In this document: positions 3,761 to 59,229 of the stretch, piece after piece
Layout of the letters: each line of letters starts with the position of its first letter
How positions within the stretch are numbered: position 1 is the first letter of the stretch
Origin: Chiloscyllium plagiosum
Lineage: Eukaryota
Assembly (NCBI RefSeq): GCF_004010195.1
Contig: NC_057718.1
Location: 55,420,422-55,484,421 of the forward strand
Length of the DNA stretch: 64,000 nt
Reading direction: 5' to 3'
Notes under the pieces: model-generated
Database searches by the model: none
The model's input: only the letters and a program-made list of their open reading frames with translations
What the model was told of the DNA's origin: nothing
Made by a program: the position numbers and the translations under genes

Positions 3761-3778
3761 TTGATTATGAGAAAGTTG

Positions 3779-3912
3779 GAGAAAGTGAGAACTGCAGATG
3801 CTGGAGATCAGAGCTGAAAATTGTGTTGCTGGAAAAGCGCAGCTGGTCAGGCAGCAACCAAGGAGCAGGAGAATCGACGTTTCGGGCATAAGCCCTTCTT
3901 CAGGAATGCCAT
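3779..3912 (-). mobile_element. Short Penelope-derived element with hammerhead motif
   Basis: 14-bp TSD ttatgagaaagttg at 3765-3778 and 3913-3926; minus strand reads CTGAAGA a gggc-ttat-gccc GAAAC GTC. Confidence 0.8.
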
Positions 3913-5581
3913 TTATGAGAAAGTTGCCATTCAGTACAAGCTATTTTTTCTGTGATGTAGAAGAATGGAAAATGTAATCTAATCATGATTTGGTTTCAAA
4001 CTTACAATAATATCAGATAAATTAAACTGTGATTTTAACAGTATTGAAATATAGTGCCCATCACTTAAATGGCCACATTTTAAAATATTACACTCAATTA
4101 TAACAGTCAAAAAGACAATATACCTTTGTTACTCTGCAATATCATCAGTTTCAAAACCGCCAGTTCTGGTGACTTAAATGCTACATTTGTCTTGGACAGA
4201 AATTACTTTTTAAATACTCTGGTACATATCCTGTTGCACAGAAGAAATGTAAGTATGTAGTACATTGGCACAGTGCACTGCATGTACTAAAGGGCTTATT
4301 GAGACAAATTTCACTTTCCTTGGTCTGTATGCTTGCTTTATTGAGTGAGAGGCATCAGCCCAAATTTTGTGGCAGTAGTAATGGTGAGCATTGTCTTACT
4401 TGAAGGCTTAATTTGACAGCAGCTTATTAGTGTTCATATTTCTATTCAACGCAGCAACCCAGAAATTGCTGTTAAAAGCATCTAACTCCTCCAAGATTGC
4501 ACTGGACTCATAAATGCATGAATTAGGATAACGAGGGAGCCATACTTTTGGTTTGAATCAGGATCCTGAGAATGGGATCAAATGGCTGTTCTGAACTGGC
4601 ACTGTGTTAGGAACATTTATCCATTAGAGATTTTTCATGACTTGTCTAGTTAGAGCCCAGAGGACATGTTCACTGTCCACTTGAAGCTAACAGGCAATTA
4701 AGAGGCCTCCCAGTACACGAGATGCAGCAGCATGCCTCCTCAGATTAAGGAGGGAGTGAACACCTCCAACTTGAGGCATTGTTCAGCCACTTTACCAAAT
4801 TTTGAATATTAAAAGCAACCAGGCCAACCCTAAAGAGGAGGGAAGTTCTTACTGGAAGTTCTTAACTGGAAAATTCCAATTGACCTTTGATAAGTAGTTT
4901 TAATTAGTCTTATGCTTGGTCTTAATTGGCTTCTGTTTTGTGCAGACAAGACTGGAGGTTCTTATGGTGGTATCCCTATCTCTGAGCCAAGAAGCCTGGG
5001 TTTGGGTTCCACTTGCTCAAATATCTCTATTAACATCTCTAAATAGGTTGGTTAGAAATATCTACTTATGGGCAGGAATCTTATGTCATCTTCTATTTCT
5101 TCTCAGAAAATTAGTCCAGAAGCAAGGTGGTGCCAGTATGCTACCTGATGGCGTGACTTTATGGAAGCAAAAGTTCTTCCTTGCATATTATGCTAAAAGT
5201 TGTTGGTAACATTACAGCTAGGGCATATTAAAGAGAAAGTGAGTTTGTACCAGTGTAATACATGATGATTACAGCGAAACAGCACATCTGTGCCACAAGA
5301 AAATTATAAGTTATGAATTTTATTCTTTCTACCAATCTAAAAGAAAAGTTTGGGACAACCATGATTGTTTATAATTTTCTGTACAGTGAAGGGCAATTTT
5401 TTTTCCTTCCAGGACTCCTCTTGAGATTTTTTAGAGTGCTACTGTTTGATTTTTGAAGCTACTTTTTGACATGATGCAGTCATGCAGTAACATTTTCCTC
5501 TGTATTTGTGTTAACGTATTAGGTATATGAATGCAGAAACCAAATTAGAATTCATCAATATTCTCAATAATTGTCAACTAT

Positions 5582-5904
5582 GGGCGGCATGGTGGCACAG
5601 TGGTTAGCACTGCTGCCTCACAGCGTCAGAGACCCAGGTTCAGTTCCCGCCTCAGGCGACTGACTATGTGGAATTTGCACATTCTCCCCGTGTCTGCGTG
5701 GGTTTCCTCCGCGTGCTCCGGTTTCCTCCCACAGTCCAAAAATGTGCAGGTTAGGTGAGTTAGCCATGCTAAATTGCCCATTGTGTTAGGTGAAGGGGTA
5801 CATGTAGGGGAATGGGTCTGGGTGGGTTGCGCTTCGGCGGGTTGGTGTGGACTTGTTGGGCCGAAGGGCCTGTTTCCACGCTGTAAGTAATCTAATCTAA
5901 TCTA
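5582..5904 (+). mobile_element. tRNA-derived V-SINE (HE1-like), full length
   Basis: A box tggcacagtgg, B-box-like ggttcagttcc, V-domain-like core (ttctccccgtgtctgcgtgggtttcctcc), (TAATC)n tail; related copies at 22418 and 61081. Confidence 0.9.
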
Positions 5905-6778
5905 TTGATTAAATTTAAAGCCACAACGCACAAGGAAAGCGTTGATTTCCTACACATCACAATATTTAATTTGGTATAAGGCGATGATCATAGGTTAGCA
6001 ACAGGATTTTGGTTTTTAAGAAAATTGGCTCACAAAGTCATCATCCTAAACACAGCTTCCAGATTGATTGATGTCACAGCTAATGCATTCACATCATATA
6101 TTCACAAAGCTGGAATAATTTATTTGAGTCAGGTATTTGGAACATGAAGGGCAATGGTTTTATTGTAATTTATATTTCCTGTTTTTACTTGTTTGCAACC
6201 TGTGAAGATTTTTTTAGTCTGGTAGGAACCATCCTGCTGTTTTCCCTGATCACAAATATACTCTAGAGAGCACCATCATCGGTCACATACAGGATGCTGT
6301 ATGCTGACAAGTATTTGGCCAACCAAAAATAAGATGATCAGTGAAAGACATTCATTAACTGTTTTACATTTTGTCAGCAGTTGGTCTTTAATAATCTTGC
6401 ATATAACCTGTCACGCAGCTAAAATTACCAAACAGTATACAATGAGGCTGTCTCAGCAATAGTCCAGCAGTTGTGTCTTTCAAACCAGGCACCCCATCTA
6501 AACAGAAAGTTTATGATTAAAAATAGCAATATTTATATAGTCTTAAAATTAGATCGTGGTGAGATTGCAAACTCTTTTAAAAGAACAACTGCATTTGACA
6601 TAGTAACTCATCAGGCCAAATGGTCAAGGTGCTTCACATTCGATAAATTTGCAGTAGTTAATAGCTATCACCTATGGTAGGTAAATCATGTTCATTGGGT
6701 GCACTCATTATCACCAATGCAGATTGTATTGGTTCTCTATTATAGTGATAATGCTACATGTGTTTTTGTCCTGTCTAG

Positions 6779-7057: not shown

Positions 7058-7489
7058 GTTGAATATTGTGTATTTTATACTCTGATAGATGTGCTGAATA
7101 ACAAAAAAGCAAAGGAACTGTGTTAGTATTGGGGAAAAGAAACAGAACAATTGTTAAAGTAACATTCATTAGTAAAAGTGAATGACAGCTCTATGAAGTG
7201 AAGTTTGTGGACAAATTGTTTAATATCCATTGAGACTTTTTCCTAGAACTGCAGTTAATGATATCCCATTAAGTTATGTTTCTTTATTTTTATAGTATTT
7301 CCAAAGAAACTTACCTATAATACCCAACCCAGCCAAAGGTACTAACATATTGGTCAACATACTCAGAGCAAAATATGATTGCTGTTATTTCCCTTTTTTT
7401 TACAATTTGCACTTTTAAACATCTTTAAAAACCCTGTAACAGTGTTACTTAAATGATTAGTCACAGTGCTTGTGGTAATCTCTTTTATT

Positions 7490-8349
7490 CAAAGTTTGTG
7501 CGAAGATTTGTAGCTCGGGTGCTCGTTGTTGTGGTTCTGTTCGCCGAGCTGGAAGTTTTTGTTGCAAACGTTTCGTCCCCTGGCTAGGCAACATCATCAG
7601 TGCTTGGGAGCCTCCTGCAAAGCGCTTCTTTGATGTTTCCTCCGGAGTTTATAGTGNNNNNNNNNNNNNNNNNNNNNNNNNNNNNNNNNNNNNNNNNNNN
7701 NNNNNNNNNNNNNNNNNNNNNNNNNNNNNNNNNNNNNNNNNNNNNNNNNNNNNNNNNNNNNNNNNNNNNNNNNNNNNNNNNNNNNNNNNNNNNNNNNNNN
7801 NNNNNNNNNNNNNNNNNNNNNNNNNNNNNNNNNNNNNNNNNNNNNNNNNNNNNNNNNNNNNNNNNNNNNNNNNNNNNNNNNNNNNNNNNNNNNNNNNNNN
7901 NNNNNNNNNNNNNNNNNNNNNNNNNNNNNNNNNNNNNNNNNNNNNNNNNNNNNNNNNNNNNNNNNNNNNNNNNNNNNNNNNNNNNNNNNNNNNNNNNNNN
8001 NNNNNNNNNNNNNNNNNNNNNNNNNNNNNNNNNNNNNNNNNNNNNNNNNNNNNNNNNNNNNNNNNNNNNNNNNNNNNNNNNNNNNNNNNNNNNNNNAGCT
8101 CGTGTGCTCGTTGTTGTGGTTCTGTTCGCCGTGCTGGAAGTTTTTGTTGCAAACGTTTCGTCCCCTGGCTAGGTGACATCATCAGTGCTTGGGAGCCTCC
8201 TGCGAAGCGGCAGGGACAGACCACTATAAACACCGGAGGAAACATCAAAGAAGCGCTTCGCAGGAGGCTCCCAAGCACTGATGATGTCGCCTAGCCAGGG
8301 GACGAAACGTTTGCAACAAAACTTCCAGCTCGGCGAACAGAACCACAAC
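7490..8349 (-). mobile_element. Penelope-like element: two tandem pLTR copies on minus plus one inverted copy; centre lies in N gap
   Basis: Repeat 7510-7656 recurs at 8097-8210 and inverted at about 8222-8349; 13-bp TSD aatctcttttatt at 7477-7489 and 8350-8362. Confidence 0.8.
8275..8314 (+). ncRNA. Minimal type I hammerhead ribozyme motif
   Basis: gca CTGATGA t gtc-gcctagccagg-ggac GAAAC GTT tgc: stem I gca/tgc, stem II, palindromic ACGT stem III, GUU triplet. Confidence 0.75.
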
Positions 8350-8439
8350 AATCTCTTTTATTTAACATTTTTAAATAAAAATTTAAAAGCTTCTCAGGAA
8401 CCTGTTGAAAGAAACTTTTGATGATGTGTCACTTTGCAG

Positions 8440-9345: not shown

Positions 9346-10681
9346 CAAAATACAAGTGACCTTCATATGTCGTCTTTAATAACTCAAAATAATCTGTTTA
9401 TTGTAACAAAATATTATTTCTGAAAACAAATTGCAAACACTTTAATATCTAAGCTTTCATCTAGAATTACAACTGTTGGCTGAATTTTAATGATTTTAAC
9501 TAAGTGCAAGTTGTGTCAAGGTTTGGGAGAAATTCTTGCCACAAGGGCCAGCAAAATTTGTCACCACAACTTACCAAATCCACCCCGGTAGCTATGTACC
9601 CTAACCCAGTATTGTCCCTCACATTCGATTCTTTCACCATCTTACCCATGTTCCTGAACAACTCTCCGTTCATTGGATATCTACCTAAAGGCCAGCATCC
9701 CTTATGCCCATGCCATTCATAAAAGCCCATTATGCAGCTGGATAACCATTGCCTGTCCAGAGCTGTCCTGTCCTGTCCTGATATTTGTTGACATATAGAT
9801 GAGAAGAAATTATCACTGCTGCCAGATCAGGTCCTGGAGATCCTGCTGGATGGGTAAGTGCAAATGTAGAGCTTCCTCTTCCTCCTTCTCACCACCAGCC
9901 CCTCCCCAAAAAACCAGCAGTGGAAGCCACAACATCAGACCGTGTCAGCTTGGTTTGAGGTTGCCACCCTGCTTAAAATGCATGCAGCCATTGGGAGGAT
10001 TGCCTACCACTATAGGAAGATGGCAGCGTCCTTCTCCACTCTTCCAGCATATATGCTATCATCCTCTCTCTGATACCTCTCTCACTTTATCTTTGTTACT
10101 GTGTCAACATCCCACGAAGGCTAATGCTCTACAGCTCTCAATATTGCCTACAACATCTTCCTTCACATGTTGTCACTAACCTCAAACCCAATACCGCTAG
10201 CCCTCCATGTCATCTGTGTTGCCTAATCACTCACTTGAGACACCTCCCCATCTGCACTAAAGGAAAGCTGTGCCACCCATTTTCACTTTGAAGGGATGTC
10301 TTTCCTTGCAAGAGAGACTAGAACCGGAACTCACTAAGAATAAGCAATCTTGCTTTAAGATGTGAAGTTTTTTTCACTCGTCATTTGCTTGTGGAAATCT
10401 CTTCAGAAAACAGAAGAGACTGGATTATTGAATGTATTTAAGACTCTGTCAGATTTTCATAGATGAGAGAACCAAGAGTTATGAAAGGCAGACAGGAAAG
10501 AAGAGTTGAGACCACAACGAGATCAGCCATTATGTTATTGAATGGCAGAGTATGCTCAAAGAGCCAAATGGCCCATTTGTCATTCTGAATTCTATATCTT
10601 ATATTTGTAATGTTAAGACTAATTGCAGCATGAAACTAGGCAAACGTAGGTGAATGTCAAGTTAGAACCATGGTATCATAG

Positions 10682-10816
10682 GACATGCCATTCCTGAAGA
10701 AGGGCTTATGCCCGAAACGTCGATTCTCCTGCTCCTTAGATGCTGCCTGACCTGCTGCGCTTTTCCAGCAACACATTTTTCAGCTCTGATCTCCAGCATC
10801 TGCAGTCCTCACTTCT
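10682..10816 (+). mobile_element. Short Penelope-derived element with intact hammerhead core at 10694-10721
   Basis: 15-bp TSD accatggtatcatag at 10667-10681 and 10817-10831; CTGAAGA a gggc-ttat-gccc GAAAC GTC. Confidence 0.85.
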
Positions 10817-11012
10817 ACCATGGTATCATAGATTAGATAGCAAGTATGTGATTTCGATGTCTTTTCCCCATATCACTATGCAATTGCAGAAAACCATTCT
10901 CTTCTTGGGCTTATTTTGTTGGTTCTTCATTCCTTTGGGTATGGTGTGACTGACATTTACCTGTACAGGAAACCTTACTATCCATTAATTTTTAACAAAT
11001 TTTGTTTTTCAG

Positions 11013-12035: not shown

Positions 12036-14459
12036 AGCTATAATGATATTTGAGTGGATAGTTTTGACATAAATTACGACAGAAGCTGAGCCACCTCCGT
12101 TCAGTGCTGCATAATAGTTGGATCCATAAGTGTATTATTGACTTGGCAATGTTGGAAATGCTGAATGAGCTCTTGGCAAAGTACTGTGCCAAATTGGCAT
12201 TGGACTCCTTACTCCCTGATGTAGATCACAGACTTTCTAGAAGACTGTTGTTGAGTCTATTGGGCACCAGTTCCTCTTTTGAGAAGAAACTATCCTTATG
12301 GACTTCTCACAATTAATTCTTAACTAACCTATTTATTTCAAAGGTTCAAGTTTGGTTCTCTAATTTCTTGATTATATACTGAGATAGCATAATAAGCTAT
12401 TAGAACTGTTAATATCAAACTTTGAACAACAACTAAATATAAGGCCAGCATCTTCAACCAAAAGGTCTGACTGACATTATAAACCAGATCATAGGGACTC
12501 TTGTGGTGCAGTGGTAGTGTGCCTAAATTTAAATTGATTTGTCCCCTTAAACTTCAATTAAATTTCCTGTTGTGTTCCTGTACTATCAACTTGTATCAGT
12601 CCTAGTTTCAGAATTTCAAAGCTAATTATGTCCAGGCTTGGTGGTTTTAAACGGTATTTGTATATTGGATTCACAAGTAATTGCCATCAGTTCAGGGATC
12701 CCCATTCTCAAAGCACTTTGTTTCAGCATTTTGGTTCTGTTTGGGTTGAAGAAGCCCAAAGTGTTATAACACCCAAATGTGTGTGTAAATTCAGAAATCC
12801 AAAGCCTAGTCCTGTCCAAAATCTCTTATCTGCTGACACAAACGTGCAGAAAGATTTAAAAGCTATCAGCAGAAAAGTTAATTCTCTGCTAGTTTGAGAA
12901 GGGGCAAAGTCCAAGTCACCAGGTGATATCATGTCATATCTGTTTTAGGTGTTTTCTCACTCTTATGTTTTGTGGGTTTTTTCTTCCTAGAAACTAGAAT
13001 AAATACTTGAATGATTGCCAAATTTCCACTTAACAGTACATTTTTAGAACACACTTTTCACTGCACAGATTTTTTAAAAAATTAAAATTGAAGAGTAAAG
13101 TTAACACTACTTTTAAACATTTGTCTCAACTTTTGGATTCTTTCTGAAATAAATTTTGAGTTGGTGGTGCTTGTGGACTCTTTCCCCCGTTGTAGTCCTG
13201 ATTTTCATTGAATTATAAAATATTCTCTCATTGTAACAGTCATGAGAATTCCGTGTGAATCTAATCCAATTTTCACTTTAGCCTTGGCTGGGGAAAGGGA
13301 CTTTTGGAGAGTCTTAAATCTCTTGCTTAACTGTCCCTAAGGGTCCTTCACCCACCTATTCCTGCTCCTGAGTGATGTTATACACCAGGTCTGTACACAC
13401 CTCACTGCACAGAGACAAGTTGTTTTGTGAGGTAGCAAGTGCAGTCTGTTCACAGATTTCTGCTTGACATGTTTTGGTTTTAGTTAAATCAAAGGAAAAG
13501 TCAGTTTCATTATTAGTTTCAAAGTCGATTGCAGTTGTAATGCTGGATCTAACTGCAGTGTTTTTTCTCATGTCATACATTGGCGACATAGCATTTCTGT
13601 GAACAATCAATTTTACTGCACAGCATGTTTTACCAATTTCCACAACTTTTTATTTTCCTCATCCAACTTTAAAGCCCATAATGGTGCTCCATCGGTTAAC
13701 TCATTCCGGACTGTTTCTAGGAGACACTGGTAAATACTGTTGTATATTTCTAAATTCTCCAGTACAGCTTCCACTACTGATGATTCTACCTATCCCATTA
13801 AACTGGTAGTCACATTTTAAGTTACTCCAGTATCATAGTGATTTCCTGTTTTAATTTAAGAACTGCTCAGCATGTGTTTAACTGCATCTAAAACTTCCTA
13901 GCTTCTCAAACTTAAAGACAATTAAATTTTGACTTCTGTGACATCCAACTTCTGGCACCACTGTTGATTTTAGGGATTTATGAAATAGTCACGTAATAAT
14001 AAGCAGTCAACAATTTACGGGAATTTTCTGATAGTTTGTTAAGTTTAGAAATGATAAATTTTTTAATTAGGTAATGAATACAACCATGACAATTGAGGAA
14101 GGTTCACTGATAGCAGAGGATAAACAGGTTGTTGGTGTGGAATGTGTTGGTCTTGTTACATTGTGTTAACATTGTATACTCTTTAGCCATGGTTTTAGGG
14201 AGCTTTTCCCCATGTCATCATCTTATGTCCTTCTACCATCTGGAGAAGTCAGCTCTCTGAGGACTATCCATGAGGACTGCTACCTACAAGGACTGCCTGA
14301 TGAGGACTGTCCTCTGCCCCTGAGCACATAATGATACATTCCATTTCTAGCAGGCTGATAGTTTATATTGTGTCAATCTGAATAGTTTTGGCCAGTGACC
14401 ATGGACAGCTACTCATGATGTTGGAAGGGCATTGTCCCCTTTCCCGCCTCCATTTGAAT

Positions 14460-16245
14460 GTAAGAACGAAGAGCAGGAGTCGGCCATCCGGCTCTTAGAG
14501 CCTGCTCCACCACTCAATAAGATCATGGCTAAATTTTTCATGGACTCAACTCCACTTGCCTGTATTTTCATCATATCCTTTAATTCCTTTATTTTTCAAA
14601 GAAGTATCTACCTTAGCTTTAAAAGCGATTATGGAAGTAGCATCAATTACGTCCCTGGGCAAGGAATTCCATAGACTAACAACCCTCCAGGTGAAGAATT
14701 TCCTTCTCAGTTCATGTCTAAACCTGCTCCCTCTAATCTTGAGGCCATGTCCTCTTGTCCTAGTTTCACCTGCCAGTGGAAGCATCTTATCTATTTCTAT
14801 TTTATTGATTCCCTTCATAATTTTATGTTTCTATAAGATCCCCCTCATTCTTCTGAATTCCAATGAATATAATCCCAATCTACTCAGTCTCTCCTCATTA
14901 GCCAACTCCCTCAACTCCGGAACAAACCAAGTGAACCTCCTCTGCACCCCCTCCAGCACCAGTACATCCTTTCTTAAGTAAGGATACCAAATATGTGAAC
15001 ACTACTCCAGGTGCAGCACTTTGTACAGTTGTAACATTACCTCTCTGCTTTTAAACTCAACCCCTTTAGTAATGAAGGACAAAATTCCATTTGCCTTCCT
15101 AATTATTTGTTGTATTTGCACACCAACCTTCTGTGATTCATGCACCAGGACACCCAGGTCCCTCTGCAAATCAGTATGAATGAAACTTTTTACCATTCCA
15201 GTAATAATCTATTTTGCTGTTACTCATACCAAAATGTATGACTTCACATTTATCAACATTGTATTCCATCTGCTAGACCTTTGCCCATTCACTCATTGTA
15301 TCTATGTTCCTCTGCAAATTCCTCTGCATGCTTTGCACTGCCACTCATCTATGTCATTGACAAACTTTGGCACTGTACACATGGTCCCCAACTCCAAATC
15401 ATCTATATAAATTGTAAATAATTGTAGTCCCAACACCACTCCCTGAGGCACACCACTAGTCACTGATTGCTAGCCAGAATAGCACTCATTTATTCCCACT
15501 CTTTGCTTCCTATCAGTCACCCAATCCTCTATCCACGCTAATACTCTATCCCTAATACAATGCATCTTATGCAGCAGCCTCATGTGCAGCATTTTGTCAA
15601 AGGCCTTTTGGAAATCTAGGTATACCACATCCACTGGGTCCCCGTTGTTCACCTTGCTTGAAATACCTTCATAGAATTCCAAAAGATTGGTGAAGCATGA
15701 CCTGCCCTTAATGAACCCATGCTGCGTTTGTACAATGGGGCAATTTCTTTCGAGATGCCCTGCTATTTCTTCCTTGATAATAGACTCCAGCATCTTCCCC
15801 ACTACAGAGATTAAGCTCTCTGGTCTATAATTGCCCATCTTTTGCCTACTTCCCTTTTAAACAGTGGCATCATATTTGCTACTTTCCAATCTGCTGGGAC
15901 TGCCCCAGAGTCCAGCGAAGTTTGGGAAATTACCGCCAATCCACCTGCTATTTCTCCCACCATCTCTTTTAGTACTTTGGGATGTATTCCATCAGGGCTA
16001 GGAGACTTGTCTATCCTTAGCTCCATTAGCTTACCCAACACTAGCTCTTCCGTAATAATAATTGTTTCCAGGTCCTCACCTACCTTCATCTCTTTGTCAC
16101 TTACTGGCATGTTATTAGTATTCTCCTTGTGAAGAACGATGCAAAGTACCTGTTCAACACCTCAGCCATTTCATCATATCCCATAACTAACTGCTCCTTC
16201 TCATCCTCTAAAGTACCAACATTTACTTTAGCCTCTCTTCTTCAT
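14460..16245 (-). mobile_element. CR1 LINE, 5'-truncated and decayed
   Basis: KSPSPDGIHPKVLKE, NYRPESLISVVGKMLESIIK, VYLDFQKAFDK, RTRGHGLK on minus strand; 3' tail near 14460. Confidence 0.9.
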
Positions 16246-16309
16246 TGAAGATTAGCTTTCAACGGCAAAACTGTGTGAGAGGTGAATTATGAGGTGGATG
16301 AAGAGATGT

Positions 16310-17100
16310 TTGATTGTGATTTGGATAAATTGAATGAGTAGCCATTTGTTTGGCAGATGAAGTATAAGGTGCATAAATGTGATATAATCCAGTTTAGTAA
16401 CAAAAACAAGAAGGAGGATTATTATCTGAATGGCAAATGTATCAGTTACTGAAAGTAAGCATGCAGGTGCAGCAGGTGATGAGGAAAGTAGAAGTTACGC
16501 TGGTCTTCATCGCCAGAGGATTTTAGTGCAGGAGCAGGGATATCTTGCAGCAATTGTACAAGGCTTTGATGAGACTACCCCTGGTGTATTGTATTCAGTT
16601 TTGGCCTCGTTATCTGAGGAAGGATGTTCCGGCTTTTGAGGGAGTGCATCGAATGCACCAGTCTGATTCCTGGGATGTCAGGACTGACCTATGAAGAGAG
16701 ATTAGACTATTAGGACTATATTCACTGGAGTTTAGAAGATTGAGGAGGAGATTCTTATAAAATCTGAACAGGACTAGACAGGGTAAACACAGGAAGGATT
16801 TTCCTAATGACTGAGGAGTCCAGAACCGGGGTCACAGTCTAAGGGTAAGGACTAGGCCATGTAGGACTGAGGTGAGGAGAAATTTCTTCATCCAGAGAGT
16901 GAATTCTTTGCCACAGAGAGCAGATGAGGCCAAATCATTGAATGTTTTCAAGAAGGAGTTAGATATGTTTTTTTAGGACTAAAGAAATCAAATGATCTGA
17001 AGCAAAAGCAGGAACAGGATACTGAGTAGGATGATCAACCATGATATTGTTTTGTGGAACACACTTGAATGGCCGAATGACCTACTCCTGTTCCTTTTTT
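16310..17100 (+). mobile_element. CR1 LINE 3' fragment
   Basis: WQMKYK..KC, LGLYSLEFRRLR, SRTGVTV motifs; tail ggccgaatgacctactcctgttcct. Confidence 0.85.
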
Positions 17101-18104
17101 TTTGTATATCTATCCTTTTTCAGAACAAAATCTTACTTTTGAAAATATTGCACTCATAATAAATGTGGTGCCTGATAAATCTTTCGTTTATCCTTGTGGA
17201 AGGCTAATTACTATTGTATCACAGTTAAGTGAGATCATATGCTACACAGGAAATACTGAATATGAAATACAGAAAGCGTATTATTTTGAAGGACACCCTA
17301 TTTCCAACACCTTCTAAAACACAGTGCATTTTTTTCTATATCCCATTAACCATTTTCTGTAATCTGCCACATTGAAATGCTGCCTGAGGGTTTTGCAAGA
17401 GAATCTAATTGCAATCACTCCCTCCTGTGAGCTGACACCTATAATACTTTTGTCCTCTGTCCTGGCTGCACTCATGATCAGTATCTCACCATATCCACTT
17501 CTGAACTGTGCTCTTAAATTATGCACAGCATTTGTTATCTGAGCTGGCAGCTTGGATGTCAGATTGGGTGACAGTACCAATGAAAAAACACTATCTTGAT
17601 GTTGCAAACACTGCCTGGCCAGATTGAAGTTCTTTTGGGAGTAAGAAGAAAAGGGACAAGAGTTGTGTTGAGATGTGAGAGGGGAAGAGTAACAAGAGGT
17701 GCATGCTCACCATTTGGAAGAGGGAAAGTGAGATGTGACAAGGAGTTTTATATTGTTGCCATCTATTGTTTCAGCCCTGCAGTGGCTGCTCCCATGATTT
17801 GGCAAGCACTATCTCCTACATGAACATAAGGATGTTGAGCCACATTTATTCCTCACCTGTTCGTGCTTGCTGCCTCAGGTTGTGTAATTCCTTGACTCTA
17901 AACAGCGAAAATGTGTTAGTGTGGTGCAATGCACCTTAGTGATGTGACTGTTATAGCCAATAATAACTGTACAGATAGTTCTCCTGTAATGCTTGTTTAT
18001 TCAACATGGTTTGTCTGTAACGCAATTTGTGAATTGCCGATGTTTTTAAAGCAAACTCCCATTCGCTGTTACGCAATTCTCATCCCCGGCACTAGGTGTT
18101 TATG

Positions 18105-18208
18105 ATTAGATTAGATTAGATTACTTACAGTGTGGAAACAGGCCCTTTGGCCCAACAAGTCCACACCGACCCTCTGAAGAGAAACCCACCCAGACCCATT
18201 CCCCTACA
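18105..18208 (-). mobile_element. 3' fragment of HE1-like SINE
   Basis: Reverse complement of the SINE tail with (GATTA)n. Confidence 0.8.
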
Positions 18209-19597
18209 GTGTGGTGGTACACTGAGGACTGGACTCTGTGTCAGCATCACATGATCAGTAGGCATGTGTGCTTTCTCTTGAAAAGCTTGGTAAAAGATAT
18301 TATGAAATGTTTGTGTAAGTGGACTTGGAAAAGCATCGTGAAAATGTCTGTACAACCTGAAGACATGAAGCTAGGAGCAGTCTGTTAATTTAAAGAATTG
18401 AGATAAGAGTGAAATTTCACTGGAATTGACTAACAGTTAAAGGGCTGTTGAGGAGCAGTTTGAAACTTGGCTTTGTTGTTTATATTAAGAGCTTTTTTCC
18501 TCTCTTTTTAGATGTTAAAGAATATCTGCAGACTTGTGTGAATTTGTTTCAGTGACTAATTGCTCTGGCAACCAACTACAAAAAAACTAGTACAGGGTCT
18601 TAGACATGGTCAGTCAGGTGCTCAGGGTGGTCAGAGTCAGGAAACTCTGCACATAGTGGGTGAGGGAGAGAAAAATAGGTGACATACTGTTACTTTTGGT
18701 GCATGTGTGCAAATGTCCTGAGGGATTGGGTAGGCCATGCAGAAGAAATTCAGGGTCAGTCAGAGTCAGATGTTAAAGAGGATGAGAGTGAGGGGGAAGA
18801 TGTTGCAGGAAATCGTGACTATAGTAGCAGAGATAGAGAGAGTGAGTATGAGGTACCATTGAGAAGATGATGGCACTTTCACTGGCAGAGTGGAGAAGGT
18901 TAGTGATCATCCTCCTACATTCTGTGCATTCCCTTACATAGTTGAATCTGCATTGTCTGGATGATAACCCTGGTCCAGGTTGGCGTGGTTCCAGTAGAAT
19001 GAAGTCCTCTGGCCTAGGAGAAAAGGACATCCTGCCTCTGCATCACCCCATCCCCATCAGCAGCATCTCCATGTTCCTGCCCACAAAAAGAGACACCAAT
19101 TTTCCATTGACTGCTATGTCCAGGGCTAATGTCAGGGACCATGCAGGGCAGCTCTGGCCTGACAGGTCTTATCTGGGTGCACAATATCTTTTTTTAAAAT
19201 GGTGCTGCACCACGGATGTTGGTCAATTCTGGGATATCCAGGAGGTGGTGAGTTGTTTTGGAAATGGCACACGGTATGATGGTGCTAAACGATGTAAGAG
19301 GGGTGCCAAAGGGTGGGGTAGATAATAAATCAGGCAGGTTTTGTAAAATAAGGTGATGGACGTCCCCAAACGTCACAGTGTGAAACTCTCCAAAAAAAAT
19401 AACAAAACTGACACTTAGAAAAAGAAATTTAAGGTTCGGTCCTTGATCTAAGGCAGGTTTCATTCTGGGATCTGACTTGTGCAGTGTTACCATTGGATGG
19501 AATCAGAAGACTGGCTAGAATGTAGTGCAGCCAGCAGATGTAGATGTCAATCAAGAGAAATCAGTTGAAGATTCTGATGAATTGCACCATACAGTAC

Positions 19598-19822
19598 TAG
19601 GCAAAAGTGAGGACTGCAGATACTGGAAATCAGAGTCTAGATTAGAATGGTGCTGGAAAAGCACAGCAGGTCAGGCAGCATCCAAGGGGCAGGAAAATCA
19701 ACGTTTCGGGCAAAAGCCCTTCATCAGGAAGGGCTGATGAAGGGTTTTTGCCCAAAGCGTAAATTTTCCTGCTCCTCTGATGCTGCCTGACCTGCTGTGC
19801 TTTTCTAGGACCATTCTAAACT
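19598..19822. mobile_element. Palindromic short Penelope-derived element (two inverted hammerhead units)
   Basis: Inverted arms around about 19730; TSD atacagtac at 19589-19597 and 19823-19831. Confidence 0.8.
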
Positions 19823-20489
19823 ATACAGTACCATACAACAGGTCAGCTACAACAGATCAAAATTTGCTTAGAGGCTACATTTTATCATTATTTTATCTTT
19901 TTTCCATGTCATTGTGAATTCTATAATGACTTCTAGCACAACCTCCAGCCACAATACACCCTTTTAAGTATAAGCCTTTAAGTACTGCAGTCTATAAGTG
20001 GTGGTAGCCTTTTTCATGTTGTGCTCCCTGTTAAAGCATACAGGCACTCAGCAGCAAACTTGGTGCTGGCTGCACAATGCCACTGTTTAATAAAGCAGGC
20101 AACATTAAGTTTGCTTCTTGCCTATCTCGAGCAGTGGATGTAAGTTAATCACACACCACAAGTCCCATGCCAATTTTCAAAGCTAAATGTTTTTAAATAG
20201 ATGGTTGGACCAGGCACTGCAGTAGGTATCAGCTTCTTGTTCACAGGGCCTAATGTTTCATTTTAAAAATTAATTCCTAGAATGTGTGCTAAGTTTCCGT
20301 GTATTTTGTATTTTCCTTTTTCTTTCACATTACCCAGCTTTTATAACACATCAGGATGAGCCCTTCAAATACCAGGGGATAGGTGGCTATAGACCCAAGT
20401 GCAGATAAATGGGATTTGTGTAGTTTGGAGTTTATTGGTCAGCAATGATATGGTGGGCCAGAGACCCTTTTCTATGTTGTATTTCTCTC

Positions 20490-20582
20490 TGTCAGGCAAG
20501 CAGGAGGCTGGAAGAACACAGCAAGTCAGGCAGCATCAGGAGGTGGAGAAATCAATGTTTCTGGTGTAACCCTTCTTCAGGT
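20490..20582 (-). mobile_element. Penelope pLTR fragment with degenerate hammerhead
   Basis: Minus strand CTGAAGAagggttacaccaGAAACATT. Confidence 0.65.
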
Positions 20583-20589
20583 GGTGAAG

Positions 20590-22375
20590 CAGATCTGGCA
20601 GCATCTGTGGAGAGCAATCAGAGTTAATGTTTCAGGTTCAGTGACTCTTCCTCAGAACTGATGTTAGTTAGGAGAAAGTTGTTTTCTTATGCAGAAGGTT
20701 GGGTGGTGGGGAGGGGTTAAGGAGTAACCGATAGGTAGAAATAGAGCCCAAAGAGAAGGAAGAACAGTTGGACAGACAAAGGAGTCGATAACGATCAGCC
20801 TGTAAGAATGAATATCTAGTAGTGGACAATTAGATGGGTGGTGTGTAATAGCAGACAGTGTAATAACAAGGCCTGATTAATGGGGGTGGGCTAAGGACAT
20901 GGGAGAAGGTGTCTCAAGCCTTAAAATTGTTGAAGTCAGTATCGAGTCCAAAGTCTGTAGAGTTCCTAAGCAGAAAATGAGGTGCTGTTCTTCTAGCTGG
21001 TGCTGAGTTTCGCTGCTGTACTCTAGCAAGCCTGAGACAGAGATGCTGGCCAGGGAACAAGGTGGTTTGTTGAAATGGCAGGCAACTGGAAGCTCAGGGT
21101 CCTTTGTGCAGACAGAATGTAGGTGTTCTGCGAAGTGGTGACCCAGTCTACACTTTGTTTCACCAATGTGGCGAAGACTACATTGTGAACTGCGAATGCA
21201 GTAGACTAAATTGAGTGAAGTGCAGGTAAAGCGCTGCATCACCTGGAAGGTGTATATGGATCCTTGGATACTGCAGAGGGAGGAATTGAACGGCAGGTGT
21301 TACACTTCCTGTGGTTGCAAGGCAAGATGCCTTGGGGTTATGACAGGATGTTCAGAGTGAAGGAGGAGTGAATCAAGGAACGGTCCTTGCGGAAGGCTAA
21401 CAGGGAAGGGGAATATATGTCTGGAGGCGGCATCTGACTGGAAGTGGCAGCTAAAGATCCTCTGGTGGGATGGTAGGTGAGGTCAAGGGAATCCTATCAC
21501 TGTTATGGGAGGAAAGAGAGAGTTTGAGAGCTGAGGTGTGGGAGATGGGTCAGATCCAGGTGAGGACCCTATCACCTATGGCACTGGGGAATCCTTGGTT
21601 TCAGGAAGAAGTTGAAAGGCCCCCTTGTCAAAGTTAGAATAATTAGAACAGATGCAATGGAGACTGAGGAACTGGAAGGATGGAATAGAGTCTTTACAGG
21701 AGCAGGATGTATTGTCAATTTACTGGGAGTTGGTTTATAGTGCGTATTAGTGGCAAGCTTATCCTCAGAAATGGAAGTAGAGATGTCAAAGATCATCTCT
21801 GACTCTTCCCTTCCCTTCCTTGACACATCTGCCACTTCAACATACCGCCATGTTCCCTGGCCAACATCTCTGTTTCAGGCTTGCTGCAGCTCAGTACAAG
21901 CTGGAAGAACAGCACTTCATTTTCAGCTTTGGAACTCTGTAGTCTTCTGAGCTCAATATTGAATTCAACAGTTTTTGGATTTGAGGCACCTTCTCCCATG
22001 TCTTTACCCCAACGCCCACATACAAGGCTTTGTTATCACACTTTCTGCTTTTACATGCCACCCATCATTAGCCATTAATTGTCCTCTGACAGCTACTCAT
22101 TCTCCCAGGTTGATCATTATTGATTCCTTTGTCTGTTCATCTTTTTTTCTCTCTCTTTTGGTTCTCTCTCCACCTATCATTTACTCCTTCCCCCTACCCT
22201 GTTTTCTGCATAAAAGCCAACTTTTTCCTAGCTAACATCAGTTCTGAGGAAGGGTCACTGAACCTGAAACGTCAACTGATTTCTCTCCACAGATGCTGTC
22301 AGACCTCCTCAGCCTCTGCAGCAATTTCTGATTTTGTTTTTGATTTCCAGCATCCACAGTTCTTTCAGGTTTTTG
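20590..22375 (-). mobile_element. Penelope-like retroelement (RT C-terminus + GIY-YIG endonuclease) with inverted 3' copy
   Basis: Minus ORFs FDISTSISEDKLATNTHYKPT and FTCTSLNLVYCIRSSQCSLRHIGETKCRLGHHFAEH; about 21830-22330 is an inverted copy of about 20590-21085. Confidence 0.9.
22237..22280 (+). ncRNA. Minimal type I hammerhead ribozyme motif
   Basis: atcagtt CTGAGGA agggtc-actg-aacct GAAAC GTC aactgat: perfect 7-bp stem I, intact core, GUC triplet; stem II has one mismatch. Confidence 0.8.
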
Positions 22376-22417: not shown

Positions 22418-22735
22418 GGGCAGCACGGTGGCACAGTGGTTAGCACTGTTGCCTCACAGCACCAGAGACCGGGTTCAATTCCCACCTCAGGCAACGGTCT
22501 GTGGGAGTTTGCACATTCTCCCTGTGTCTGCATGGATTTTCTCCGGACGCTCTGGTTTCCTCCCACAGTCCAAAAATGTGGAGGTTAGATGAATTGGCCA
22601 TGCTAAATTGCCCGTAGTGTTAGGTGAAGGGGTAAATGTAGGGGAATGGGTCTGGGTGGGTTGCTCTTTGGATGATCGGTGTGGACATGTTGGGCCGAAG
22701 GGCCTGTTTCCACACTGTAAGTAATCTAATCTAAT
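22418..22735 (+). mobile_element. HE1-like V-SINE, full length
   Basis: Same structure as 5582-5904. Confidence 0.9.
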
Positions 22736-23189
22736 AATGTTCTATCGATTATATGTAATGGGTGCATAGATGGGTATGACAAGGTGATTAAAGAAAGGTG
22801 GTCCTTTTAATTCCAACTCACTTCAACAGCAGTTTCTGCATCTGGTCCTTGGGATAAGGGATTCAGAGTCAATCAAGTGTCAGCATACTTTAGCTGTGAT
22901 CAATGTTGAGGGTCTCGATGTCTCAAAGTTTGATCAGGCTGTATTCATCCACTGCTTCCATTATCCCCGTGCTCATGTTGCCCACCAGATTTTAGTATAT
23001 CTGAGTGTTAGACTCTAGGTAGAAGAGGTATATGACAGCAGTGTTGATGTGACAAGCCTGTGCTTCTGGTGCTACAGGTCAAACTCAGGAATGATGATGA
23101 TGGTGTCTGAGATGTTGTCATACTCATGGAATTATACCTTACTATGTCAGGTTGTTGCTTCACAGATCTGTGAGACAGTTGTCCCAATT

Positions 23190-27453: not shown

Positions 27454-28087
27454 GTAAAACATCTAACATTCTCAATATGATGATTAGAGTGCAAGTCTGA
27501 TACAACACATAAGGATATACTGTGAATTTATTTATAGCTTGAGGGTCCCATTACTCCAAATAAAGAAAATCACAAATGGAAAACTCATTTTTATTTATCT
27601 TACTTGAACATGTAGAAATGTATGTTTCTTCATTTGAAATAATTGGCCCATGTTATAAATGGATATATAAGTGGATTCTCCTGATTGCCCAATAAACTTT
27701 GACAGAAAATCTATAGAACCCCAGATAATCGCAATCATTAATCATTTTTCCTGCTGAAAGGAAATTATTTTCTCCTTTTAAAATTTAACTTCAACCCCAC
27801 ATAGCTACTTAATTTTATAAAGCACACACTGAATTAATATACAGGTGCAAAGCTTCCTTGCTATTTTTAACTTCAGCATCTGTTTTCTGGATGCTATTTT
27901 ATGGTTCCTATACTTGAAAATTTCACTTCCATCTTGAGATACAAAGAAAGCTGAAAGGGGCTGATCTCAGGAGATTTTTTGACACTTCTATTATTTTGTG
28001 TTGATTTTGGCATCCTATGCATGTGTATGGTAATAAATAATAGAACCAAACCTTTGCTGAGATCATCAGTTAATAATTTTAATTGTC

Positions 28088-28175
28088 GAGAGTATGGTGC
28101 TGGAAAAGCGCAATAGGTCAGGCAGCATCCGAGGAGCAGGAGAATCAACATTTCGGGCATAAGCCCTTCATCAGG
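28088..28175 (-). mobile_element. Short Penelope-derived hammerhead element (degenerate core)
   Basis: About 16-bp TSD aataattttaa(t/c)tgtc at 28072-28087 and 28176-28191; CTGATGA...GAAATGTT on minus. Confidence 0.75.
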
Positions 28176-32324: not shown

Positions 32325-32665
32325 AAGGTAGGCAGGCAGGAGGCTGAAAGAACACAGCAAGCCAGGCAGCATCAGGAGATGGAGAAGTCGATGTTTCAGG
32401 TGAAACCCTTCTTCAAGAATGGGAGTGGGTGTAGCGGGAGCTGCACATAAAGGGGGTGGCAGGGTAGGGTGGTGAAGTAAGGATAGGTGAAGACAGGTAG
32501 AGGGTACAACCTGGTTGGTCATTGGGAGGAATGAATCCACTTGATGGCAGGCAGGAGTGGAAGGGATGGGGAGGGGCTGGGAAGGGGGTCAGGAGATGGG
32601 AAGGGAGGCTATTTGAAATTGGTGACCTCAATTTTGAGTCCTCCAGGCTGTAGGCTTGAATTTGT
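32325..32665 (-). mobile_element. Penelope-like 3' fragment with degenerate hammerhead
   Basis: Minus strand TTGAAGAagggtttcacctGAAACATC and the same downstream tail (gatgctgcctggcttgctg) as the other copies. Confidence 0.7.
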
Positions 32666-47200: not shown

Positions 47201-48389
47201 AACAGAATGTTCCTATTGGATAATTAACTCCTGAAAGAGAAAATAGGACAACATTTTGGGTGTTGCTTGAATATAATTTTCAAGTCATAGATAAAATAGT
47301 TAGAAGATGTAATACTAAGAAGTAGCAAAGCAAAGTTAGCCAATTTTTAATCATGTTGAATTGTATCCGAGCTGAATTAGCAATGGTAATGATTACAAAT
47401 GAAATGCAGCCAAATCAGGTTCCTATTGAACGTCACTATGAGACAAAGTTACTGTGTTTCCTTCACACAGATTTGCAAAAAATTGCTATCAGGAACTTGA
47501 ATTATTTGTATAAATTTCCATTCAAACTGATTCTTATTAGTCTTTCGATTTTTTTTTTAGAGATTCTAGGAACTCATTGCATCCGTCCATGATATTTACA
47601 ATACCTGGTTCATATAGATCAATTTGTAAACTACTAATTGGTCAGACATGTTTACCTGTTGTTTCAATAATATAGTCTCTTCATTGATTTGAGTGAAACA
47701 GTCCATTCAAGTAGTGCTTTGCAACAGTGTGATGCAAATAGAGTTTTTTTACTGTAATTTCCTCTCAAAGTTGAGTTTGTACCATGGTATCGAACTACAG
47801 ATGGCCGATACCCCTTAATACTTTGTGCCATTACTGCGAGAGCCTCAACAATGACGTCAGTTAACAAGCTACTGAGACCAAAAGGGTCAGCCGATCATTT
47901 TGCCTACTATCCAACCATAAATGCTTGCATTGAAGGCTAGATAATGACCTAAGTACCCTAACATTTTAATTGCCTTCCCTACCTTAACCCTAAGGCAGTT
48001 TCTACCTGTGCTGTGGTCAACAAGTTCGTTTCAGCTTGAGATTAAATCTATAATCTTTTTAGTAGGCAGGGCTGTTTATAATGGATAAGATGCTGGGCAG
48101 GTTCATCAATTACTGATATAGTGAAGATTGAAGAAAAGTGATTAGAAATTAGCATTTAGTACATGATTCTGCATTTCTGTTTCACCTATAGGGTCAATTG
48201 TGTGCAAAAATGACTAAACATTTCTAATGGATGCAATTTTAAAAAAAAAATTCAAGCATTAGCTACAAAAGATATATATAATGCAGTCTATTATCTATTC
48301 CACCTTACGTCCCAAAGATGATATTGGGTATGCTTGCTTGAATGGTGTTTGCTGGTTTCTCACCAGCAACTATTCTTTGTATGTACAGT

Positions 48390-48580
48390 TTCTGGATTAG
48401 TGGTGCTGGAAGAGCACAGCAGTTCAGGCAGCATCCGAGGAGCAGTAAAATCGACGTTTCAGGCTATTCATGATGAAGGGCTTTTGCCCGAAACGTCGGA
48501 TGCTGCCTGAACTGCTGTACTCTTCCAGCACCACTAATCCAGAATCTGGTTCCCAGCATCTGCAGTCATTGTTTTTACCC
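48390..48580. mobile_element. Palindromic short Penelope-derived hammerhead element
   Basis: 15-bp TSD ctttgtatgtacagt at 48375-48389 and 48581-48595; inverted arms; (A)TGATGA agggc-tttt-gccc GAAACGTC. Confidence 0.8.
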
Positions 48581-53379: not shown

Positions 53380-54520
53380 CAATCACTCACTAATGAGTAT
53401 GATTGTCCATCTAAGAAATTGGTCAAAAGTTCTGAGTGCTTGCATGGCTGATGAGCCCAATCCTAGAGACACACCTCTAACCATATGTTTCACAAGTGTT
53501 TCTGGGAAGAGGACTTGGTCCTTGGTCTCATCGAGGTCATTGGCATTCCTATCTCAGGTTCCTTTTCTGTAATTGCTCTTAAAGAAGTGTCAAAAATGTG
53601 TTGCTGGGAAAGTGCAGCAGGTGAGGCAGCATCCAAGGAACAGGAGAATCGACGTTTCGGGCATAAGCCCTTCTTCAGGATTCCTGAAGAAGGGCTTATG
53701 CCCGAAGCGTCGATTCTCCTGTTCCTTGGATGCTGCCTGACCTGCTGCGCTTTTCCAGCAACATATTTTCAGCTCTGATCTCCAGCATCTGCAGTCCTCA
53801 CTTTCTCCTTAAAGAAGTGTCCCTTTGTACAAAATGTTCTACCAGGTTGGTTCCTTCCGAATGAGAGCCTCCCAAACATTGACATCTATATTGCATTCCT
53901 TGAATTAAGCCTTCAGGAAATCTTTGAAACGCTTCCTAGGTCCGCCTTTCATTCAAGTGCCTTCACTGAATGGAACAAAGAAGATTTATTTGGGTAGTTC
54001 AAGCTCAGGCATCCTTAGCAGGTGAGTGCCCAACGGAGTTGGTTTGGGATGATCATGGCATCGATGCTGGTGCTATTAGCTGCTTCGAAGATACCATTGT
54101 TAATACATCTGTCCTCCCAGCTGACGTGGAGAATCTGTCTTAATCAATTGCTCCTACTCTGAATGTATTATTAATATGCCAGAACTTTTACCTCTTGTTT
54201 TTTTATAGATTACTTACAGCGTGGAAACAAGTCCTTCTCTGTCCTCCCAGCTGACGTGGAGAATCTGTCTTAATCAACATTGATGGTACCTCTCCAGGGC
54301 CATGAGGTAGAATCTGTATGAAATCCAAGTTCTAGAGCCATATAGAAGATTCAAGCTAATTAGAATAGTGTCTGAGCTCTGCATGTCATCAACAAACTTA
54401 TTGATGCTCTGCCAACGCCTTTGAACTGATCATTATTAAAGACGGTGATGAGCAATGGATGACAGTGCAATTCCAGGAGTGAGTAGCCACAAACAGAGCT
54501 GATCAGATTAATTACCGCCA
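53380..54520 (-). mobile_element. Decayed RTE-clade LINE 3' part
   Basis: Minus strand LLYGSRTW...LERYHQC*LRQILHVSWEDRCINN...SIDAMIIPNQLRW; boundaries approximate. Confidence 0.7.
53592..53807. mobile_element. Palindromic short Penelope-derived hammerhead element
   Basis: 14-bp TSD cttaaagaagtgtc at 53578-53591 and 53808-53821; near-perfect inverted arms centred on cagga-t-tcctg (about 53671). Confidence 0.85.
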
Positions 54521-58952: not shown

Positions 58953-59136
58953 GGGGTCCAAAAGTGTGGTACTGGAAAAGCACAGCCAGTCAGGCAGCAT
59001 CCGAGGAACAGGAGAATCAATGTTTCGAGCATAAACTCTTCATCAGGAATTCCTCGGATGCTGCCTGACTTGCTGTGCTTTTCCATTGCCACACATTTTG
59101 ACTCTGATCTTGAGCATCTGCAGTCCTCACTTTTTC
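58953..59136. mobile_element. Palindromic short Penelope-derived element (degenerate hammerhead)
   Basis: 10-bp TSD ctggtcaatg at 58943-58952 and 59137-59146; inverted arms. Confidence 0.75.
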
Positions 59137-59229
59137 CTGGTCAATGAGATTCCATTCATTCTTAGGAATATCCAGTAGTGTAAGATGGAGGTCAATGAAC
59201 TTCTCTGCTCCTTCAGGGTGAGTGCTTGA

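What the first reader, a model, noticed from the sequence alone, without database searches (positions are those of the whole stretch)
10667..10831. Roughly 90-230 bp ribozyme-only insertions with their own 9-16 bp TSDs
Seen: seven short units (3779, 10682, 19598, 28088, 48390, 53592, 58953), each flanked by a different TSD, with no coding sequence. Most begin within a few nt of the hammerhead CTGA and share the tail ...cagcatctgcagtcctcactt. Inference: either a non-autonomous retrozyme/SINE-like unit mobilised by Penelope RT, or strongly non-random truncation at the ribozyme boundary.
Basis: partly seen in the sequence, partly recalled or inferred. Interest (0 to 1): 0.7.

Follow-up and report, generated by a model that had tools for sequence, protein, structure and literature searches.

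The report
Penelope retroelement stubs starting at hammerhead
Seven 88-225-base insertions in this window are the hammerhead-bearing end pieces of a Penelope-like jumping gene, and nearly all begin at one point just upstream of the ribozyme motif rather than at its predicted cut site, likely because the element's reverse transcriptase runs off the start of its own RNA.

Summary
The seven units and their 9-16 bp TSDs are real. They are not 'ribozyme-only': each is the last ~90 or ~130 bp (pLTR end, with or without 'tail') of a Penelope-like element; four are head-to-head palindromes with the tail on one arm, a published PLE signature. The 5' boundary is non-random: 9 of 11 arms start 0-5 nt before the hammerhead CUGA, about 30 nt upstream of the predicted cut. 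Contigs of two public runs show hundreds of junctions to unrelated flanks at the same three bases. RNA reads, however, often continue into shared upstream sequence, so the unit is part of a longer element; no separate small RNA, Pol III boxes or tandem array was seen in the window. Best reading (inferred): reverse transcription starts internally, as shown for an anole PLE, and runs off an mRNA start inside the pLTR; Inr- and TATA-like motifs sit at the fitting spacing. The start site itself is not shown. The scan noted this family repeatedly elsewhere in this genome. Known kind; the fixed 5' end was not found in print.

The parts
10667..10681 (+). left TSD copy (15 bp) of the reference unit
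   Evidence: exact repeat at 10817-10831; occurs twice in the window
10682..10688 (+). 7 extra junction bases that include a 3-bp mini-inversion of the unit's first bases
   Evidence: sequence; a similar 4-bp mini-inversion at 3909-3912
10689..10816 (+). solo pLTR-end unit with tail (family A, reference copy)
10690..10725 (+). minimal type I hammerhead motif: weak helix I, CUGANGA at 10694, bulged A, 4-bp helix II, GAAAC-GUC core with palindromic ACGU; predicted cut between 10721 and 10722
   Evidence: pattern, alignment and pair counts; cleavage not tested; no Rfam hit
10775..10816 (+). optional ~35-40 bp 'tail' between the two preferred 3' ends
   Evidence: loose ends at 10774/10775/10779 and 10814, depth drop after 10770; tail missing from inverted arms and from 28088
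10817..10831 (+). right TSD copy (15 bp)
3779..3912 (-). solo unit with tail; 14-bp TSD at 3765-3778 and 3913-3926
   Evidence: 96% identical to 10682 over the core
19598..19822 (-). head-to-head pair, tail on the left (minus) arm; 9-bp TSD at 19589-19597 and 19823-19831
28088..28175 (-). solo tail-less unit; 16-bp TSD with 1 mismatch at 28072-28087 and 28176-28191
48390..48580 (+). head-to-head pair, left arm starts at +16, right arm at -4 with an internal deletion and a diverged tail; 15-bp TSD at 48375-48389 and 48581-48595
53592..53807 (+). near-perfect head-to-head pair, tail on the right arm; 14-bp TSD at 53578-53591 and 53808-53821
58953..59136 (+). head-to-head pair; right arm lacks the hammerhead (starts at about +39, 5-bp microhomology with the centre); 10-bp TSD at 58943-58952 and 59137-59146
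20582..22372 (.). related long PLE insertion (family C): two inverted arms, decayed RT-thumb, CxxC linker and GIY-YIG sequence upstream of a homologous hammerhead; context, not one of the seven units
20494..20581 (-). short unit of a sister family (B) that also starts at -1 from CUGA; no clear TSD
   Evidence: TSD score 6
32330..32656 (-). family B copy that continues about 200 bp upstream of the hammerhead into the last codons of a PLE-like ORF
   Evidence: weak tblastn piece, E 0.99, 7 of 14 residues
63158..63290 (-). family B copy that continues at least 60 bp upstream of the hammerhead

Best explanation
The units are TSD-flanked end pieces (pLTR end, with or without tail) of a Penelope-like retrotransposon, and their shared 5' boundary likely marks the start of the element's RNA, reached by a reverse transcriptase that would begin only about 90 or 130 nt downstream. 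Steps: (1, shown) copies have two preferred 3' ends about 35-40 bp apart and one preferred 5' end at 10689-10691; (2, from the literature, anole PLE) the PLE protein nicks both DNA strands and starts reverse transcription at two internal RNA sites that bracket the tail; (3, inferred) a transcript that starts inside the pLTR, 4-5 nt before CUGA, carries these sites near its 5' end, so priming there yields a short run-off cDNA; (4, inferred) one primed strand gives a solo stub, both strands give a head-to-head pair with the tail on one arm, joined at the two run-off ends; (5, inferred) longer copies come from priming at the downstream pLTR of read-through RNA. Ribozyme cleavage would play no part in setting the main boundary.
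For: In contigs of two runs the top loose-end rows at 10689-10699 (478, 379, 306 contigs in X5; 584, 471, 269 in X10) have agreement 0.31-0.36 and mostly A/T-rich consensus, against 0.32-0.33 simulated for unrelated flanks and 0.45-0.89 for smooth truncation. The boundary is about 30 nt upstream of the predicted cut, and on the far side of the fold from where a stalling enzyme would meet it. Two 3' ends match the tail signature of PMC11167929. An Inr-like YYANWYY with its A at C3-4 is present in 4 of 4 long B/C copies (1.3% of window positions match) with the best or tied-best TATA-like 8-mer at -30 to -31; family A's upstream consensus in RNA reads fits the same spacing. Promoter and start site lie in the pLTR in D. 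virilis Penelope (PMC2377424). All four palindrome centres differ, and copies are 81-96% alike, so the boundary recurs in several subfamilies.
Against: No RNA start was seen: table 6 is empty and 98% of 3341 laid reads run on into unlike sequence, on both strands (one poly(A) single-cell run, about 2 in 100 of it read; the second run laid 0 reads). The RNA loose ends at 10689 and 10699 (317 and 198 reads, agreement 0.59 and 0.65) show that about half or more continue upstream, and these two rows alone do not reject smooth truncation with two upstream variants (0.51-0.60 simulated). Contig counts under-count collapsed long copies, and only 18 of 610 loose-end rows were shown. No consistent cap-derived G: present in 3779, absent in 10682. 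The Inr-like motif overlaps helix I, and B and C copies are related, so the 4 of 4 is not four independent cases; TATA matches are weak (6 of 8 letters in three copies, 4% of positions). Both family C arms and 2 of 3 family B copies carry the motifs yet extend upstream. In D. virilis the start site (371) lies about 120 nt before the intron end (491) that marks helix I. No full-length family A element could be examined.
Confidence: 0.55

Rival explanations
1. The template is longer and the fixed 5' end is a truncation hot spot: the enzyme stops, or the cDNA is nicked or captured by end joining, at the ATT just before CUGA.
For: The anole PLE endonuclease prefers an ATT motif in its own pLTR (PMC11167929) and the boundary is at ATT; junctions show microhomology and short templated inserts; many RNA reads continue upstream; fold-back self-priming was proposed for PLE palindromes (PMC3846280).
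Against: A structure-induced stop is expected at the 3' foot of the fold (about 10725), not after it has been copied; the unit folds no better than shuffles (z -0.05); ATT is common and would not by itself give a 3-nt peak.
Confidence: 0.2
2. The stubs form a non-autonomous SINE-like family: short copies are themselves transcribed from an internal promoter and re-copied in trans by the PLE protein.
For: Very high abundance (about 80,000 contigs laid in each of two runs; 1.8% of the window); 0 matches to family A upstream sequence in the window; Penelope has an internal promoter; 5' truncated templates are used in vitro.
Against: No Pol III A or B box at <=1 mismatch in 3 of 3 units while 2 of 2 control SINEs have both; no discrete RNA ends; the same unit is joined to shared upstream sequence in RNA reads; junction extras and palindrome centres are all different, so none was inherited from a short master copy.
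Confidence: 0.15
3. The units are non-LTR retrozymes: hammerhead cleavage releases a monomer or circular RNA that is reverse transcribed.
For: Head-to-tail joints of 126 bp (10814 back to 10689) exist in 8 contigs of X5, 20 of X10 and 1 RNA read; a few joints use 10722, the base after the predicted cut (2 and 1 contigs); retrozymes derive from pLTRs (bioRxiv 10.64898/2026.07.22.740005).
Against: 0 of 7 units are tandem; main 5' ends are about 30 nt upstream of the cut and the units keep the whole core; the motif is the minimal PLE type with a mismatch in helix I (72% of cells paired); tandem joints are a few dozen among about 80,000 contigs.
Confidence: 0.06
4. Ordinary random 5' truncation; the apparent peak is an effect of detection or of using a short copy as the reference.
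For: A short reference forces loose ends at its edge; RNA rows are compatible with many copies continuing.
Against: TSDs fix the ends in 7 of 7 window copies without any reference; contig loose ends at 10690 and 10691 show background agreement (0.31-0.32).
Confidence: 0.04

Closest known systems
Insertion architecture of endonuclease-positive Penelope-like elements: pLTR, optional 30-40 bp tail, adjacent inverted copy (PMC3846280; PMC8557442; PMC11167929)
   Same: Head-to-head arms, tail on one arm only, 9-10 bp TSDs reported in the rotifer copies, palindromes at the inverted junction, two 3' ends.
   Different: Here the whole insertion is only 88-225 bp and the 5' ends pile up within about 3-6 nt; the texts read describe 5' truncation as frequent and variable and do not report such a peak.
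[quoted passage not shown]
   Same: Type I, no helix III, palindromic core, bulged base before helix II, thousands of solo copies 'probably related to truncated PLEs', pairs on opposite strands close together.
   Different: That paper does not map TSDs or ends; helix II is 4 bp here against 7-8 bp in the Schistosoma motifs; family A helix I has a mismatch.
Anole Poseidon element PAc (Frangieh et al. 2024, PMC11167929)
   Same: Two 3' ends bracketing a tail, about 110 nt downstream of an ATG in the hammerhead region; both target strands primed; ribozyme cleavage not needed.
   Different: The related long element in this window has the CxxC linker described for Neptune/Nematis rather than Poseidon; the paper does not address genomic 5' ends or the start site.
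Non-LTR retrozymes of animals (PMC7229834; bioRxiv 10.64898/2026.07.22.740005)
   Same: Short, non-coding, type I hammerhead, pLTR-derived, TSDs longer than 4 bp.
   Different: Defined as tandem repeats (mostly canonical hammerheads, 150-450 bp) giving circular RNA; the units here are solo or inverted, with rare tandem joints and no RNA evidence.
Twin-primed L1 inversions and retroviral minus-strand strong-stop DNA (recalled, not looked up)
   Same: Two priming events giving an inversion; a short cDNA that runs off the RNA 5' end.
   Different: L1 inversions use non-overlapping RNA parts whereas both arms here copy the same segment; strong-stop DNA is tRNA-primed and transferred, not inserted.

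Membership tests
EN+ Penelope-like element, truncated insertion | pLTR linked to an RT + C-terminal GIY-YIG ORF | tested here: inconclusive
   Met for family C in the window: its upstream frame matches 770-890 aa proteins with RVT_1 and GIY-YIG.
EN+ Penelope-like element, truncated insertion | optional 30-40 bp tail at one end | tested here: met
   two 3' ends, 10774-10779 and 10814; tail on one arm in 4 of 4 palindromes
EN+ Penelope-like element, truncated insertion | adjacent inverted (head-to-head) copy | tested here: met
   4 of 7 units
EN+ Penelope-like element, truncated insertion | variable-length TSD | tested here: met
   7 of 7, 9-16 bp
Minimal type I hammerhead of PLEs | CUGANGA / GAAA core, bulged base, helix II, palindromic 15.2-16.2, short helix I | tested here: met
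   10 copies aligned (9 distinct): 83% of cells paired, 3 of 8 pairs change on both sides, slid controls 8-50%; structure was drawn from these sequences, and related copies inflate the shuffle test
Minimal type I hammerhead of PLEs | self-cleavage (as dimer or protein-assisted) | not testable with these tools
   needs an assay; energy folding does not give the hammerhead fold
Non-LTR retrozyme | two or more head-to-tail units with complete hammerheads | tested here: not met
   0 of 7 units; rare 126-bp tandem joints elsewhere (8 and 20 contigs)
Non-LTR retrozyme | ends set by ribozyme cleavage | tested here: not met
   9 of 11 arms start about 30 nt upstream of the predicted cut; 0 of 11 at it
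Non-LTR retrozyme | abundant monomer or circular RNA | tested here: inconclusive
   no pile of ends in one poly(A) run, which would miss such RNA
SINE (Pol III) | A and B boxes, tRNA/7SL/5S-derived head | tested here: not met
   no box at <=1 mismatch in 3 of 3 units; present in 2 of 2 control SINEs (box patterns recalled); no Rfam or tRNA hit
Neptune clade of PLEs | Zn-finger-like CxxC linker between RT and EN; RT phylogeny | tested here: inconclusive
   linker seen in family C at 21331-21284 (feature from PMC8557442); no tree; family A ORF not seen

The most novel reading that the evidence does not exclude
Because PLE reverse transcription starts internally, the element copies the first 90-130 nt of its own mRNA as a strong-stop-like run-off product, and in this genome that abortive product (solo, twin-primed palindrome, or head-to-tail jump) is the commonest insertion. 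The genome would then hold a fossil map of the PLE start site and of both priming sites, and the 126-bp head-to-tail joints would be the template jump that builds pLTR tandems and seeds retrozymes.
Probability: 0.4. Interest if true: 0.6.

Novelty: new variant of a known kind. Interest (0 to 1): 0.33.

Why it matters
How PLEs make pLTRs, tandems and inverted ends is still open (PMC2377424 and PMC11167929 say so). A family with tens of thousands of junctions at fixed 5' and 3' ends gives a direct test: if the 5' end is the RNA start, internal priming alone explains solo minimal hammerheads, head-to-head stubs and the raw material for retrozymes, without ribozyme cleavage. It also means that hammerhead-headed short repeats in such genomes should be annotated as PLE ends, not as a SINE. 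As an element class it is not new.

Tried and rejected
No whole genome was held, so the genome-wide 5' end plot could not be made. Pattern scans for more copies: viral contigs 3 chance-level hits and 0, metagenome contigs 0, prokaryote genomes 0 and 0; protein-led metagenome scan 0 of 172 candidates confirmed. Rfam: 0 hits at gathering score in the window, 2 chance hits at 10600-10900. The 42-codon frame from 10708 (open to the unit's end in 2 of 3 young copies) found no homolog, so 'the unit holds the ORF start' stays unproven. No RNA holder was listed as RNA among indexed runs; run X22 laid 0 reads (no test). No empty site was seen: contigs of the second organism label carry both junctions of the 10682 insertion (table 8). 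Cap-G signature: inconsistent. Stable overall fold: not supported. DPE match: not claimed. Rejected: ribozyme cleavage as the source of the main 5' end; tRNA-SINE; chance TSDs. Lunse et al. (PMC5785218) was not held; figure S2 and the sequence file of PMC11167929 and the preprint's supplements could not be read and may bear on whether a 5' peak was already visible.

Full report
Setting. The window is animal DNA: exons of a beta-spectrin gene (Spectrin repeat, E 8e-26) with repeat-rich introns. The repeat content looks shark-like to me (recalled, not tested).

Observation. All seven units are present with TSDs of 14, 15, 9, 16 (one mismatch), 15, 14 and 10 bp. Each scores at least 10 in my TSD search, a score reached by 20 of 1945 random intervals. 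Three units are solo (3779 and 10682 with tail, 28088 without) and four are head-to-head inverted pairs with the tail on one arm (19598, 48390, 53592, 58953). The tail motif matches 5 of 7 units at up to 3 mismatches. A sensitive BLAST found no further family A copy beyond these 11 arms. The units cover 1.8% of the window and are 81-96% alike between insertions over the 80-nt core, with one arm down to 78%.

The ribozyme motif. Rfam finds nothing. By pattern the unit starts with a minimal type I hammerhead: short helix I, CUGANGA from 10694, a bulged A, 4-bp helix II, then GAAAC-GUC, which predicts a cut between 10721 and 10722. On 10 aligned copies of three families (9 distinct) helix II is 94% paired and helix I 72%, 3 of 8 pairs change on both sides, and slid controls give 8-50%; I drew the structure from these sequences, so this is support, not proof. 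It fits the description of PLE minimal hammerheads in PMC4209133 (text parts 1-2 of 4 read). Cleavage was not tested. The motif is about a quarter of the unit.

Parentage. A related element at 20582-22372 has two inverted arms ending in a homologous hammerhead; the frame upstream of it matches 1128 proteins at E<=0.001, and of 9 hits scanned all show GIY-YIG and 6 show RVT_1 at E<=0.01; tblastn places RT-thumb, CxxC linker and GIY-YIG remnants there. A sister family (B), 68-83% identical to family A over the core, has copies at 32330 and 63158 that run on upstream, the first into what looks like the last codons of such an ORF (weak). Family A's own ORF was not reached. Head-to-head arms, a tail on one arm and TSDs of this size are published PLE features (PMC3846280, passages and Discussion; PMC8557442, passages), and the tail lies between two internal reverse-transcription start sites in the anole element, which primes both target strands and does not need ribozyme cleavage (PMC11167929, parts 1-2 of 4, passages, supplements 1-2 as bare text only).

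The 5' boundary. Nine of 11 arms start 0-5 nt before C3; the exceptions start at +16 and about +39 (the latter can be a later deletion between 5-bp repeats); none starts at the cut. For a wider sample I laid four runs on 10590-10889: 81,454 contigs (X5) and 79,703 (X10, a second organism label) and 3341 of 12,955,460 RNA reads (X21) were laid; X22 laid none. The best-supported upstream loose ends lie at 10689, 10690, 10691 and 10699 (the last looks like a clip at a subfamily difference, and in X5 its consensus returns to the same boundary). In contigs these rows hold 269-584 records each with agreement 0.31-0.36; my simulation gives 0.32-0.33 for unrelated flanks, 0.33-0.39 for 10-20% continuing, and 0.45-0.89 for smooth truncation with 1-4 upstream variants. 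Against this: in RNA reads the rows at 10689 and 10699 have agreement 0.59 and 0.65 with a pyrimidine-rich shared sequence, so about half or more of these reads continue into the parent, and those two rows alone do not reject a smooth model; the row at 10690 (205 reads) has 0.39. Contigs under-count collapsed long copies, X5 was not fully counted, and 18 of 610 loose-end rows and 15 of 65 joints were shown. The fair statement is that the peak is real and holds somewhere between about half and nine tenths of junctions, and that the unit is also part of a longer element. Downstream loose ends fall at 10774-10779 and 10814, the two 3' ends. Head-to-tail joints from 10814 back to 10689 occur in 8 (X5) and 20 (X10) contigs and 1 read; joints using 10722 occur in 2 and 1 contigs, a possible minor class of cut templates. 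No pile of RNA starts or ends was found, and 98% of reads run on into unlike sequence on both strands, as expected for copies inside host transcripts; a poly(A) library would miss a small or circular RNA.

Mechanism. An enzyme copying 3' to 5' meets the hammerhead's 3' foot first, so a stop just beyond its 5' edge is better read as the end of the template than as a structural block (inference); the unit also folds no better than shuffles. The boundary sits on an Inr-like motif: 4 of 4 long B and C copies have YYANWYY with the A at C3-4 (1.3% of window positions match) and their best or tied-best TATA-like 8-mer at -30 to -31, scoring 7, 6, 6 and 6 of 8 (both patterns recalled); family A's upstream consensus fits the same spacing. 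A fourth family (D, 7512-8351) lacks the motif in 2 of 2 arms checked and is not cut there. In D. virilis the promoter and start site lie in the pLTR (PMC2377424, parts 2-3 of 4), though about 120 nt upstream of the hammerhead. Joining this to internal priming gives the run-off model: an RNA that starts in the pLTR has the priming sites 90 and 130 nt from its 5' end; one priming gives a solo stub, two give a head-to-head pair. The four centres all differ and the arms share 2-5 non-reference letters each, so both arms come from the same template type and each junction was made separately. Weak points: the start site is not shown, the Inr-like motif overlaps helix I, the related copies are not independent, family C and most family B copies here extend upstream, and the cap-G signature is inconsistent. 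I put the model at 0.55; identity as PLE end pieces and the non-random boundary each at over 0.9.

Rivals. A truncation hot spot at the ATT (0.2), a SINE-like family re-copied from short masters (0.15; no Pol III boxes in 3 of 3 units against 2 of 2 controls), a retrozyme (0.06; 0 of 7 tandem; definitions from PMC7229834, passages, and bioRxiv 10.64898/2026.07.22.740005, parts 1-3 of 5), and smooth truncation (0.04).

Novelty. The element type, the solo minimal hammerheads and the inverted, tailed architecture are in print (also PMC6765202, passages). Seven searches and the texts above showed no report of a sharp 5' peak at the hammerhead's upstream edge or of a run-off explanation; subscription papers, PMC5785218 and unread figures or supplements could hold one. 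Earlier notes of this scan describe the same family and the same boundary in other parts of this genome (156 notes fit the look-up, 8 shown); I had written my reading down before seeing them and do not count them as support. Verdict: a real, very abundant, known kind of insertion with one unreported regularity that makes a specific step of PLE transposition testable. Interest 0.33.

Noticed in passing
window 20494-20581 and 20582-22372: A short family B unit abuts the tail-less arm of the family C element; the pair may share a 7-bp flanking repeat (not above chance), which would make it a composite of two families.
   Followed up: partly
window 3909-3912 and 10682-10688: Both solo tailed units carry a 3-4 bp mini-inversion of the unit's first bases at the 5' junction, like a stunted second arm.
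   Followed up: partly
beyond 10814 in laid reads: The consensus past the tail is a pyrimidine run ending in TAG, resembling a 3' splice site at the tail end; the 19598 copy extends to it.
   Followed up: no
window 7479-8362: Family D insertion with a different hammerhead, three arms, an assembly gap and a 13-bp flanking repeat; its arms are not cut at the -5 boundary.
   Followed up: partly
window 55619-56784: Decayed PLE RT and GIY-YIG remnants on opposite strands next to an assembly gap.
   Followed up: partly
window 54108-54277 and 61022-61112: A 91-bp piece identical to the flank and end of the SINE at 61022 sits between two identical 40-bp repeats.
   Followed up: no
window 53035-53242 and 55042-55249: 208-bp direct repeat, 94% identical, 2007 bp apart, bracketing the 53592 unit.
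   Followed up: no
window 5582-5918, 22418-22758, 61081-61370, 18099-18208: Copies of a SINE with Pol III A and B boxes, used as control; CR1/L2-like LINE fragments also occur (for example 14452-16748, 23187-24556).
   Followed up: no
window 10601-10889 in run X10: The 10682 insertion is present at both junctions in contigs of a second organism label, so it is shared rather than private.
   Followed up: partly
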